64,000 nt of DNA, taken from NCBI RefSeq assembly GCF_006345805.1, contig NC_043001.1, positions 24,986,001-25,050,000 of the forward strand, read 5' to 3'. Position numbers and translations under genes: made by a program. This document shows positions 13,204 through 46,506 of this stretch, piece by piece. This DNA is from Octopus sinensis (Eukaryota). Within the stretch, counting starts at the first letter, position 1. Each line of letters opens with the position of its first letter. The notes beneath the pieces were generated by a model. It was given only the letters and a program-made list of their open reading frames with translations, had not been told where the DNA came from and did not search any database.

Positions 13204-13597
13204 TCTTTATATATAAAAGTCAAGTTGTGTGTCTGTCTCCTACGATTTAGATTCCTAACTACTCCCACATTTTGCAGTGCAGTTTAACTAAAACCGGGTA
13301 TCTTATAGTCGTGATTCATATCGAGCCCTTCTGGGTATTAGCACGCGTCTACGATGAGTCTACGATTTAAAAAAAATTTACCATCATTTTTTTCCATTTT
13401 TAATGCATTTTTGGCATATATAAGGGAAGTAACTCTCTAAAAATTTATTATTAAATCTCAGAACGTAAAAAGCTACAGTAACACCCCCCCTCTTTGTGGT
13501 TAGCCATATTGAGATGGCTATTATACTTTACATCTCTAAAAATGCTTATATAGTTATTTCCCTTACAAACCCGAGCAACGCCGGGCAATACTGCTAG
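13204..13597 (+). mobile_element. Complete non-autonomous Helitron
   Basis: 5' TC after host A, 3' hairpin cccgagcaacgccggg, and CTAG end followed by host T. No TSD. Confidence 0.93.
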
Positions 13598-27854: not shown

Positions 27855-29232
27855 GAGTCTGCCGTTATTCCCAGTGTAACAGATTATGTCTACTGCATAA
27901 TTGTCCATTTACCTGTCTCCTGGGAACTCGTCACAAATATAAATATAAACAGGATCCCTAACCAATACAGAACCCACAACCACAAACATTTCCATTTCTC
28001 CAAACAGAATATTCTTTTTTAGCCATAATGAATCTTGCAAAAGAGCTACAAAAGAACATTCTAGCCATCACACAATACCCCTCTTTGCCGCTACCCTATT
28101 GCACAAACTCCCATTGCTGTCATTAACAAGCAAATCACCAAAACAGTCAAAATCAGTCACCACTATCGCCTCAACATTTTTGCTCAATGCACAAAGCATC
28201 AGCCCTTCCACCAATGCCCAAAAATGGAAGATCCAATTTATTGAGGACTGCGTTAATGACTATCCACACCATATCCCTTTTTACGTCCTCACAGAGACCC
28301 ATCTCAATAACCTCCACTTGGAAGCTGATGCAAGAGTGAAGAATTTTACAGCCATCTGTGCAGATCATGTCAGCAGAAGAAAGGGTGGGACCGCCATTTT
28401 CATGCACGATTCTTTTTCAGCTGAAGCAATGGACGTTTCTACCAATGGCCACTGTGAAGTAGCTTCTGTGTATAGTAAAACCAACAATTTAATAGTAGTT
28501 GGGCTCTATTGGCCACCTCTAACTCCTTTTCTACACTTCAAGGAATGCCTCAACAGTATTAAGCATTTCATCCATCAGTGTCATGCTGACAACATATTAA
28601 GGATAGGGGACTTCAACTTTCCCAGTGTTGATTGGTCCACAAACAGCTTGAAACCAGGTTTTTCCACCTCAACCCCTGATAAGGAAGCAATCGAATTGCT
28701 TTTTGATTTCATAGATGAGTTTTTCTTGACCCAACTTGTTCGCGAACCAACAAGGTGTCACAAAAACATCTTGGATCTAGTATTCAGTAACCATACTGAC
28801 ACTATCCTCAATATTGCAATGGAAAAAACACCACTACTCTCAGACCATGACATGGTTCTCTGCGATCTGAGATTCTACCACCCAAAGATCAAATCCAGTG
28901 ACATCTCTCCAGTCCATCCATTTGACACTATGGATCTTCATAACTCAGAATGGGATGCGATCAATCATGATCTTTCACAAGTTGACTGGGCCTTCACGCA
29001 TGCACACACACCCTCCAACATAAACACATTATGACAGACATTTGTAGATTCTGTTACAAATATATGCGCAAAACATACTCCATTAAGATCAGTATACAAA
29101 TCTAAGTGCAGAATCCCTAGAGATAGAAGAGCAATTATCAGAAAAATAAAAAGAATTAACAAGAAAATCAACCAATTTAAATACTGCCAGCAGCAATGCA
29201 CCCATTCGACTGCCATTGCATCGCTTGAATCA
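27855..29232 (+). mobile_element. CR1/Jockey-group LINE fragment: APE endonuclease domain of ORF2 (ORF 28099-29034), no RT
   Basis: APE motifs LTETHL, KGGTAIF, GDFNFP, EPTR..NILDLVFS and SDHDMV. The frame continues past the TGA at 29032-29034. Confidence 0.92.
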
Positions 29233-29352
29233 AAATATAGTTTTTCTAGTATTTCATTGCCCTTAATTATAAGCATTTTACATGAGTGCATACAAATGAA
29301 CATGATAAGACAAATGGATGATAATATTTCTAATATAATAATTTCAAAGGAA

Positions 29353-29796
29353 TAATAAATCTCTGAACGAGATGTAAACAGTAACTGCTCGACAACGTAA
29401 AGTATACTAGCCATCTCACCCTTAGTGGTTAGCCATATTGAGATGGCTAGTATACTTTACGTTGTCGAGCAGTTACTGTTTACATCTTGTTCAGAGATTT
29501 GTTATTGCTTGCAGACAGTTTTTCGAAATCAGTGATGGAAGTTACTAGAAAAACAATAAATAAGTATTTGCAAATGGTCTCCCTTCATCGAAAACTGGTG
29601 ATTGCCATACGCCGAAGACAGGCAAATACCTAGAAACTGCAGTCCGTGCGTATCACTTAGGTTGATGAGAGAGGGATGACCTCCCTTTGCAAATACCACA
29701 AGGGCACAGAAAGTGTGCCTAAAGCCAGCTGAAGACAATAATCTCCTGGGCTAAAAGCTACAGTAACACCCACCCTTAGTAGCTAGTATACTTTAC
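29353..29796. mobile_element. Penelope/retrozyme-like fold-back insertion with a hammerhead motif and a 13-bp TSD
   Basis: 62-bp inverted arms at 29357-29418 and 29439-29500, a terminal direct repeat cccttagt...gctagtatactttac, and TSD aatttcaaaggaa at 29340-29352 and 29797-29809. Confidence 0.85.
29598..29656 (+). ncRNA. Minimal type I hammerhead ribozyme-like motif (variant core CCGAAGA)
   Basis: gtgat..tacg-CCGAAGA-c-AGG-caaata-CCT-a-GAAAC-TGCA-GTC-cgtg..atcac. The palindromic stem III loop is typical of PLE hammerheads. Confidence 0.65.
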
Positions 29797-30147
29797 AATT
29801 TCAAAGGAAAAGAAAACAAATGACTTATAAGCTAATCATTCTGTTTTATATCAATGTTTAAGAATACATGTAAGTGATCAGTGTAATGAGCTTTTTAGTT
29901 CTATAAATTTCTTTATGAAAGAAATCGAATGAGTGATTTAATATTTTTCAAAAACAACAAAAATCAAAGTTTTAATATTCGACCATAGTACTGTCAATAC
30001 ATTCAAGTATTTCTAAAATAAATTCCAAGTTCAAAAGGAATTAAAGATATATTTCTACCAATATTGAGAGTATATATAGAGAATCTCCTGACAATTTTGA
30101 GACTCAATTTGGAATTAGCTATATCTTTGTAGCAAAATGCTCTCATA

Positions 30148-30307
30148 GGCAGAGGAGTGGCTGTGTGGTAAGTAGCTTGCTTACCAACCACATGGTTTCA
30201 GGTTCAGTCCCACTGCGTGGCGCCTTGGGCAAGTGTCTTCTACTGTAGCCTCGGGCCGACCAAAGCCTTGTGAGTGGATTTGGTAGACAGAAACTGAAAG
30301 AAGCCCG

Positions 30308-30355
<48 letters not shown>

Positions 30356-37150: not shown

Positions 37151-37603
37151 ACAAAATATTTTCATTTCTGAAATGCATGCAATAGTTAATGGTTACATTG
37201 GATAACACTTACCTGTCATTTATTTAACCAAAAATATATTCAATGATTACAACTAAAGTATATTTGAGCACATGATGAAAAAAAAAAGAACATGAGCTAG
37301 TTAATATTATTTTCATTTTATAAAAGACAACTTCAGATACATTTCTGCCTTAGGGGGACAGTTTTCTATAACTTATCAAGGTACAATGTTTCTCCTGCTT
37401 TATATCAACAAATTAACAATTTTCTGTATCACTACCATTCCAACTAGTTACAAAAAGGTTGCACTTCATTGACAAACTTCAACTAAAGCAAAACGCATCA
37501 AGATTGGACTTCTGTAATACCTTCTGAAAATCCATATTTAGTCATAGCATTTCGTACAAATTAGATAAGTTACGCACTAATTTTAAGCATTTTTTTTTTC
37601 TAG

Positions 37604-37764
37604 TACAACCGTTAGATCCTGCTCAAAGAAGTTCTGCATTCATTCGTCATAAGCTAGGAGGCCGATCAAGTTCCTTGGAAATTGATGAGTCAAAATCCGG
37701 GGCATCAAGTTTTTCCCTCTACTCGAATCCATCACCAGTTAGTTCAAACCCAAACTTGTCACAA
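37604..37764 (+). CDS. STAC: STAC-like adaptor, Ser-rich linker exon (QPLDPAQRSSAFIRHKLGGRSSSLEIDESK...NLSQ), phase 1-0
   Basis: Branch-like gcactaa, poly-T tract, ctag acceptor and CAA|gtaagt donor. The 161 nt are open and in phase with both neighbouring exons. Confidence 0.85.
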
Positions 37765-46360: not shown

Positions 46361-46446
46361 CTGAAAAGCTCGAAGAAGAAAAATGATGATGTATATGTTG
46401 TTCTATATAATTTTAAAGCCAAAGAAAAAGATGACTTGGATCTCAG
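46361..46446 (+). CDS. STAC: STAC-like adaptor, start of first SH3 (LKSSKKKNDDVYVVLYNFKAKEKDDLDLR)
   Basis: Acceptor gttttag and donor CAG|gtaatt. It carries the SH3 signature YVVLYNFKA..DDLDL. Confidence 0.93.
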
Positions 46447-46506
46447 GTAATTATAAAATAATTTTTCTCAAACACGAAATCTGGGAAAATTCATAATTAC
46501 TTCAAA

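What the first reader, a model, noticed from the sequence alone, without database searches (positions are those of the whole stretch)
29340..29809. Retrozyme/Penelope-like element with a variant hammerhead, fold-back end and 13-bp TSD
Seen: a 444-bp non-coding insert with a 13-bp TSD. It is made of an about 355-bp monomer bounded by a short direct repeat, plus an inverted copy of that end which carries about 45 extra nt. The monomer holds a well-formed minimal type I hammerhead (CCGAAGA core, 3-bp stem II, GAAAC-TGCA-GTC, bulged stem I). Established: Penelope-like elements have tandem or inverted pseudo-LTRs with a one-sided tail and minimal hammerheads with palindromic stem III loops that act as dimers, and non-autonomous retrozymes form circular RNAs. 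Inference: this is a non-autonomous ribozyme-carrying retroelement family sitting sense-strand in a STAC intron. The U4C core change is either decay or a family-level variant that silences cleavage of host pre-mRNA.
Basis: partly seen in the sequence, partly recalled or inferred. Interest (0 to 1): 0.72.

Follow-up and report, generated by a model that had tools for sequence, protein, structure and literature searches.

The report
Penelope-mobilised hammerhead retrozyme family
This 444-base insert is one slightly decayed copy from a group of protein-less repeats of about 355 bases with thousands of copies in the genome, which keep a predicted self-cutting hammerhead RNA fold and land with one long and one short end, so it is likely an animal retrozyme copied by the enzyme of a Penelope-like jumping gene; the kind is known, but this landing signature would help show which enzyme spreads it.

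Summary
In detail: 13-bp target duplication, 444-bp insert, inverted arm, 354-nt unit and hammerhead are at the stated places. The insert belongs to a non-coding 356-nt repeat family with two sister families (353 and 358 nt); together they give about 2,000 exact hammerhead-pattern matches and arrays of up to 7 units. Copies have two fixed 3' ends about 46-49 nt apart. All 61 two-armed insertions with both ends callable pair one long with one short end, mostly inside a 12-13-bp duplication. This is the Penelope (PLE) two-start signature, so a PLE enzyme likely copies it; the partner element was not found. The hammerhead covaries and has a long stem I, so it is not the minimal PLE type. U4C is a subfamily trait (37 of 100 listed copies), not private decay; derived subfamilies regain a canonical core, one by a C3-G8 to U3-A8 swap. 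Host-silencing is unsupported and the STAC intron is not shown. Cleavage and circular RNA are untested. It is a new member of the known non-LTR retrozymes; this scan noted the same kind in another genome.

The parts
29340..29352 (+). Left copy of the 13-bp target-site duplication; its last bases overlap the element's long end
29347..29418 (-). Inverted, 5'-truncated arm (monomer positions 94 to 23) that starts at the family's long 3' end; joins the forward arm with a 2-nt overlap
29417..29770 (+). One full unit of the 356-nt monomer (354 nt here), CCGAAGA subfamily, about 95% identical to the family majority sequence
29430..29449 (+). 7-bp hairpin just 5' of the short end; part of the module shared with the sister families
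29461..29510 (+). 'Tail': the stretch between the short (monomer 44-47) and long (monomer 89-95) 3' ends
29597..29657 (+). Type I hammerhead with extended stem I: core CCGAAGA 29612-29618, stem II 29619-29632 with loop CAAATA, palindrome ACTGCAGT 29636-29643, predicted cut after 29644
29771..29796 (+). Start of the second unit, ending at the short 3' end (monomer 44), with a net 18-nt deletion that removes the hairpin
29797..29809 (+). Right copy of the 13-bp target-site duplication

Best explanation
The insert is one copy of a protein-less 356-nt repeat family with a conserved hammerhead fold (a non-LTR retrozyme), and it was likely copied into place by the reverse transcriptase-endonuclease of a Penelope-like element acting in trans. 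Shown: the unit, its tandem arrays, two fixed 3' ends, long-plus-short pairing, 12-13-bp duplications, AT-rich and (TA)n targets, covariation of the ribozyme. Inferred: the PLE protein binds the conserved end module, nicks both target strands about 12-13 nt apart, and primes one cDNA at each of two internal start sites about 46-49 nt apart; the two 5'-truncated cDNAs are joined head to head, often by a few shared bases. Arms run through the ribozyme cut site and past one unit, so the template had that site intact: most likely a ligated circle (about 55%), otherwise an uncut multimer (about 45%). The window copy comes from a C4, C-A subfamily predicted to cleave weakly and is probably an inert passenger.
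For: Period 356, 353 and 358 nt in three families; 7-unit array of 2,507 nt. 61 of 61 two-armed insertions with both ends callable pair long with short, p=4e-19; 19 more of the 80 two-armed insertions had one non-standard end. Duplication of >=10 bp in 33 of 44 two-armed insertions with unique flanks, 8 of 46 one-armed, 10 of 1,892 mismatched controls; exact lengths 12-13 in 19 of 30, 82% AT. Same two ends in family 3. 54 of 80 inversion joints overlap. 5' ends near the cut site in 2 of 150 arms. Pairing 93.1% against 88.8 +/- 0.3 shuffled; 48 double-change cells against 12.2. Rfam Hammerhead_1 at 32.2 bits, E 6e-5, on the youngest sister subfamily. No long frame. Intact RT plus GIY-YIG frames with 97-99% identical copies exist in the genome. 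A PLE protein nicks and extends both strands from two internal starts that define the tail (PMC11167929).
Against: No autonomous PLE with a homologous end was found in 50 PLE loci; only 150 of 5,029 GIY-YIG candidates were scored. The best-sampled young PLE family has a tail of about 35-38 nt, not 46-49. The Rfam hit is below the gathering score of 34, and the three family-1 core types tried and the window gave none. The number of covarying pairs (8) is not above shuffles (83 of 500), rows are related, and core and stem III columns were fixed by my pattern. In vitro the Anolis protein showed no start-site difference between strands, so strict long-short pairing is not explained by that paper. 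One tandem (L010) joins two core types, which fits a mixed multimer better than a single circle.
Confidence: 0.82

Rival explanations
1. Same element and enzyme, but the template is an uncut linear multimer transcribed from master arrays; no circle is needed and ribozyme cleavage is dispensable for spreading.
For: Weak-core (C4, C-A) subfamilies spread to many sites. L010 has two core types in tandem; L013, L030, L077 and L097 pair TCGAAGA with CCGAAGA arms. In the Anolis PLE, ribozyme mutants still insert (PMC11167929).
Against: Six of 10 majority differences between the CCGAAGA and TTGACAA subfamilies fall in the 33-nt core (p=6.5e-5; five restore or keep core features, one is at the free position 7), which points to selection on cleavage. 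Near-identical 7-unit arrays (0-4 differences per unit pair) fit rolling on a circle. Related retrozymes make circles (PMC7229834).
Confidence: 0.4
2. The copies are stubs of the pseudo-LTR of an ordinary autonomous PLE, not an independent element.
For: The anatomy (inverted arm, tail, duplication) is that of PLE insertions (PMC8557442; PMC3846280). Partner search was shallow.
Against: Head-to-tail arrays of the unit alone, up to 7 units. No shared non-unit sequence upstream of 76 one-armed copies other than a common SINE end and microsatellites. No PLE frame continuous with a unit.
Confidence: 0.06
3. U4C was selected to keep the ribozyme from cutting the host (STAC) pre-mRNA.
For: U4C lowers activity in vitro (PMC3088659). 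Downstream exons are on the same strand as the hammerhead.
Against: C4 is inherited from master lineages: 37 of 100 listed copies, on both strands, also in family 2. Derived subfamilies carry U4. The same paper says a U4C viroid stays infectious. The intron is not shown.
Confidence: 0.05
4. A satellite-like repeat spread at the DNA level (recombination or capture by DNA elements), with the hammerhead as a relic.
For: Tandem arrays exist; one 88-nt piece was amplified inside a Helitron-like repeat.
Against: Fixed 3' ends, variable 5' ends, new inversion joints and a private duplication at each site are marks of target-primed reverse transcription.
Confidence: 0.03

Closest known systems
Metazoan non-LTR retrozymes (Cervera and de la Pena 2020, PMC7229834; passages and part 3 of 6 read), e.g. 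mussel 350-390-nt and axolotl 330/350-nt repeats
   Same: Short, non-coding, low-GC tandem unit with one type I hammerhead; axolotl HHR_Amex2 also has a 2-pair stem III with tetraloop and a mismatch at the base of stem II; PLEs co-occur.
   Different: Circles and cleavage are shown there, not here. The passages I read do not describe two fixed ends, long-short pairing or 12-13-bp duplications. A review (PMC7761336, passages) says animal retrozymes show no conserved motif that points to their partner; here an end module is conserved across three families.
Li, Clavereau and Pollet 2026, bioRxiv 10.64898/2026.07.22.740005 (parts 1-3 of 5 read: abstract to discussion; supplements closed)
   Same: [quoted passage not shown]
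   Different: Its evidence is co-occurrence and pLTR homology in 35 genomes (31 vertebrates, 3 insects, 1 coral); it does not use insertion anatomy. Here anatomy supports PLE mobilisation but no homologous pLTR was found.
Endonuclease-bearing Penelope-like elements: PAc of Anolis (PMC11167929, main text parts 1-2 of 4 read), Adineta Pen2a (PMC3846280, passages), Naiad/Chlamys and non-autonomous MRC1 (PMC8557442, passages)
   Same: Inverted 5'-truncated arm, one-sided tail between two reverse-transcription starts, target duplication, AT-rich or microsatellite targets.
   Different: No reading frame; tail 46-49 nt rather than 30-40; hammerhead is extended rather than minimal; the whole element is one repeated unit.
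Natural hammerhead core variants U4C and U3-A8 (Perreault et al. 2011, PMC3088659, passages)
   Same: Both variants are known in nature; U3-A8 is compensatory, U4C lowers activity in vitro.
   Different: Here both occur as whole subfamilies within one retroelement lineage.

Membership tests
Metazoan non-LTR retrozyme | Type I hammerhead in each unit | tested here: met
   Covariation; Rfam RF00163 E 6e-5 but 32.2 < 34 bits, on the youngest sister subfamily only; window copy has three departures
Metazoan non-LTR retrozyme | Short tandem unit (about 170-400 nt), GC under 45% | tested here: met
   Periods 356, 353, 358; arrays up to 7 units; GC 44% and 42%
Metazoan non-LTR retrozyme | No protein-coding frame | tested here: met
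   Longest stop-free frame 83 aa, longest from ATG 52 aa in families 1 and 2
Metazoan non-LTR retrozyme | Highly self-paired monomer RNA | tested here: met
   Circular folds 61-66% paired, z -5.4 to -8.4 against 60 shuffles each; prediction only
Metazoan non-LTR retrozyme | Self-cleavage of the RNA | not testable with these tools
   Needs in vitro transcription
Metazoan non-LTR retrozyme | Accumulation as circular RNA | not testable with these tools
   Only assembled contigs of runs guessed to be RNA were available; they cannot show circles
Metazoan non-LTR retrozyme | Autonomous PLEs in the same genome | tested here: met
   RT plus GIY-YIG frames of 775-781 aa
PLE-type insertion (endonuclease-bearing clades) | Two fixed 3' ends defining a one-sided tail | tested here: met
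   End histogram and 61 of 61 pairing; tail 46-49 nt, longer than the 30-40 nt in print
PLE-type insertion (endonuclease-bearing clades) | Inverted 5'-truncated arm and target duplication | tested here: met
   80 of 156 insertions two-armed; duplication in 33 of 44 with unique flanks
Autonomous PLE | RT and GIY-YIG reading frame | tested here: not met
   None in or continuous with the units
Non-autonomous derivative of a named PLE | Homology to the pLTR of an autonomous family | tested here: inconclusive
   None in 50 PLE loci, a small part of 5,029 candidates
Minimal PLE hammerhead | Lacks helix III or the loop I-loop II elements (PMC7761336) | tested here: not met
   2-pair stem III, 11-pair stem I with internal loop, conserved 6-nt loop II
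tRNA-derived SINE | tRNA-like head | tested here: not met
   ARAGORN found no tRNA in 4 loci; a decayed head could be missed

The most novel reading that the evidence does not exclude
These families record a catalytic RNA evolving under selection inside a genome: masters with weak cores (C-A at the base of stem II, U4C) were overtaken more than once by masters that rebuilt a canonical core (G-C, U4, and twice a C3-G8 to U3-A8 swap), because a better ribozyme makes more circles, which a dimeric PLE protein then copies from two internal starts into both target strands, at times from two different RNAs.
Probability: 0.3. Interest if true: 0.7.

Novelty: new member of a known kind. Interest (0 to 1): 0.42.

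Why it matters
Which enzyme spreads animal retrozymes is still argued from co-occurrence and end homology. Here the insertions themselves carry the Penelope two-start signature (61 of 61 long-short pairs, 12-13-bp duplications), and the two start sites are mapped on a 356-nt RNA, so the question can be tested in vitro with a PLE protein from the same genome. The series of natural core variants (C4 or U4, C3-G8 or U3-A8, C-A or G-C) in one backbone is a ready test of whether cleavage rate drives spreading. The window copy itself is probably an inert passenger.

Tried and rejected
Partner PLE: BLAST and a family profile against 50 GIY-YIG loci found only separate retrozyme insertions (L153, L144, L134), no homologous pLTR; two hammerheads 3.6 kb apart (L274) proved to be two insertions with no frame; no distant duplication or shared upstream sequence marked a hidden second arm. 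Expression: no RNA holder listed on record; contigs of runs guessed to be RNA cover the unit and bridge the unit-to-unit joint, but that joint also exists in DNA, so it says nothing on circles. CpG decay as the source of the U4/C4 mix: rejected; CpG change is 4.9% (C>T) and 6.0% (G>A), and among 72 arms CTGA was 31 and CCAA 3. A-to-I editing footprint in copies: none (A>G against T>C, p=0.33). Longer arrays with canonical cores: arms with two or more cut sites were 3 of 27 and 4 of 10 (U4 with G-C, families 1 and 2) against 1 of 33 and 1 of 4 (C4) and 2 of 30 and 0 of 5 (U4 without G-C); suggestive only and confounded by age. Primer-template pairing at the ends: mean overlap 1.4 nt against 0.44 shuffled, but the way ends are called roughly doubles the null, so inconclusive. 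STAC C1 exon: not among the 150 scored of 8,655 candidates near the window; no splice joint across the element was listed, tables cut. The MIR447 Rfam hit is only the long hairpin (76 of 200 bits). The bacterial promoter scan is not relevant to this genome. Lunse et al. 2017 was not held.

Full report
Observation. The window holds AATTTCAAAGGAA at 29340-29352 and 29797-29809, with 444 bp between; a 72-nt inverted pair (29347-29418 and 29439-29510, 96%); and a direct repeat at spacing 354. The hammerhead core spans 29612-29644. Rfam gave no hammerhead hit for this copy at E<=10. The genome is 2.72 Gb with about 30 large contigs; that it is an octopus is my inference from size and repeat content (recalled), and no call names it.

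Family. A DNA search gave 3,408 candidates, of which 40 were scored. The majority unit is 356 nt, with the predicted cut after position 229 (position 1 = window 29417). Exact pattern counts, each with 0 in the reversed control: 372 family-1 cores, 1,153 family-2 cores, 453 cores with other loop III sequences, and 2,950 matches to the end module of families 1 and 2. Family 2 has a 353-nt unit 73% identical to family 1; family 3 has a 358-nt unit about 71-75% identical. Units stand head to tail, up to 7 in 2,507 nt. No long frame exists. Predicted circular monomers fold with z of -5.4 to -8.4.

Insertion anatomy. Among 156 distinct insertions (167 loci, duplicates dropped), 3' ends on the hammerhead strand pile at positions 39-50 and 87-97, peaks 47 and 93. 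The peak at 39 is an alignment artefact of a subfamily variant whose end is also near 47. Of 80 two-armed insertions, 61 had both ends in these classes and all 61 paired long with short (p=4e-19); the other 19, the window copy among them, had one non-standard end. Duplications of 10 bp or more flanked 33 of 44 two-armed and 8 of 46 one-armed insertions with unique flanks, against 10 of 1,892 mismatched pairs. Exact lengths were 12 or 13 in 19 of 30, and the sites were 82% AT; 54 of 80 inversion joints overlap by one base or more. Many other copies sit in (TA)n. Family 3 shows the same two ends (176-179 and 226 nt after the cut, against 174 and 220 in family 1). Loci were picked by similarity or by pattern, not at random; 12 family-2 loci were chosen by me for having several hits.

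What this matches. In the Anolis PLE, one protein nicks and extends both strands of AT-rich DNA and starts reverse transcription at two internal sites whose interval is the genomic tail (PMC11167929). Inverted arms, one-sided tails of 30-40 nt and duplications are PLE hallmarks. I infer that each nick primes one cDNA at one of the two starts and that the two are joined head to head. In the window the long-ended arm is 72 nt and the short-ended arm is one unit plus 26 nt.

Template. 5' ends fell within 6 nt of the cut site in 2 of 150 arms (about 5 expected if uniform; most arms were selected for holding the core). In the 24 arms picked by the end module, 8 ran through the site. So cut linear monomers are not the usual template. 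The two arms of one insertion are as alike as units within an arm (medians 4.2% and 4.4%) and closer than arms of different loci (8.0%) in family 1, so both usually come from one RNA kind; L006, L009 and L017 join arms of two core types and L010 has two core types in tandem. Circle or uncut multimer cannot be told apart here.

The ribozyme. It has stem I of 6+5 pairs around a 3x1 loop, loop II CAAATA or TCAATA, and stem III of 2 pairs with a tetraloop inside an 8-nt palindrome. That this layout resembles the Schistosoma extended hammerhead is recalled, not tested. On 63 of 102 distinct rows, 93.1% of cells pair (shuffled 88.8 +/- 0.3) and 48 cells change on both sides (12.2), in both parts of stem I, the 3-8 pair, stem II and the loop palindrome; the count of such pairs, 8, is not above shuffles (83 of 500), and my pattern fixed the core and stem III columns. 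Loop III varies among TGCA, TCGA, CCGG, CTAG and CTGG, which keeps dimer pairing possible. Rfam Hammerhead_1 hits the youngest family-2 copies at 32.2 bits, E 6e-5, below the cut-off of 34, and not the three family-1 types tried.

U4C. In the first 100 of 372 family-1 matches, counted by hand: TTGACAA 33, CCGAAGA 19, CTGAAGA 18, CCGACGA 11, CTGATGA 10, TCGAAGA 5, CTGAGGA 2, CCGACAA 1, TCGACGA 1; so C4 in 37. CpG decay is too slow to explain the mix. Trees with and without the core columns (midpoint root, many weak forks) place CTGATGA and CCGACGA types early and TTGACAA late in family 1, and CCGATGA early and CTGACGA late in family 2. The C-A mismatch at the base of stem II is the early state, as the U-U mismatch in an axolotl retrozyme shows is tolerable. 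Six of 10 majority differences between the CCGAAGA and TTGACAA types lie in the 33-nt core (p=6.5e-5); the same test is not significant for the other four subfamily steps, including old to young family 2 (4 of 32). Median divergence from own majority is 3.4% for both those family-1 types, so TTGACAA is derived but not measurably younger; young family 2 is at 0.6%. U4C and U3-A8 are both known natural variants.

Partner and host. The genome has intact, near-identical PLEs, but none of 50 loci had a homologous end. The element lies about 300 bp after a LINE-type endonuclease frame (27949-29034). Plus-strand exons at 37597-37764 (AG/GT-bounded, present in two contigs) and 46361-46447 (STAC-like SH3) lie downstream; no upstream exon was located, so the intron is plausible but not shown.

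Known or new. It meets the sequence-level features of non-LTR retrozymes; cleavage and circles could not be tested. PLE origin of such elements is already proposed. Searches for a cephalopod retrozyme or for this insertion signature in retrozymes found no such paper; the bioRxiv supplements were closed and could hold related data, and Repbase or Dfam were not available. This scan noted the same kind in another genome. Verdict: real, a new member of a known kind, with useful mechanistic evidence; interest 0.42.

Noticed in passing
window 13204-13597: Helitron-like non-coding repeat (5' TC, 3' hairpin and CTAG) that carries an 88-nt two-armed insertion of this retrozyme (13445-13532: inverted long end plus short end, 11-bp duplication). 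A 30-mer beside it has 3,282 exact matches and all 6 loci checked carry the captured piece.
   Followed up: partly
window 27949-29355: 361-aa frame with a LINE-type apurinic endonuclease domain (PF14529, E 5e-13); the retrozyme sits at the end of the next open frame, so its target may be a decayed LINE.
   Followed up: partly
L149, L148, L150, L151, L154, L156, L157 (e.g. G000:C6:12729800-12735100): Young PLE family, 781-aa RT plus GIY-YIG frame, copies 97-99% identical, with its own short hammerhead that also has U3-A8 and two ends about 35-38 nt apart.
   Followed up: partly
L153 and L158 3' ends; L122, L147, L167: CCGA cores also occur in unrelated hammerhead-like motifs at PLE loci, so C4 may recur across families in this genome.
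   Followed up: no
L279-L285 (e.g. G000:C2:119543700-119545400): More distant relatives of the unit (profile E 1e-6 to 1e-23) with other loop III sequences; possibly a fourth family.
   Followed up: no
L274 (G000:C3:30475800-30482000): Two family-3 insertions 2.8 kb apart share the same inversion joint, so one insertion was likely duplicated later.
   Followed up: no
window 30150-30310: A common SINE-like repeat ending in (TA)n right of the element; ends of similar repeats are the target site of some retrozyme copies. The SINE label is recalled.
   Followed up: no
runs X13, X16, X17, X18: Family words occur under four organism labels; contigs of organisms A and B were laid and hold the unit, so the family is shared among related species.
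   Followed up: partly
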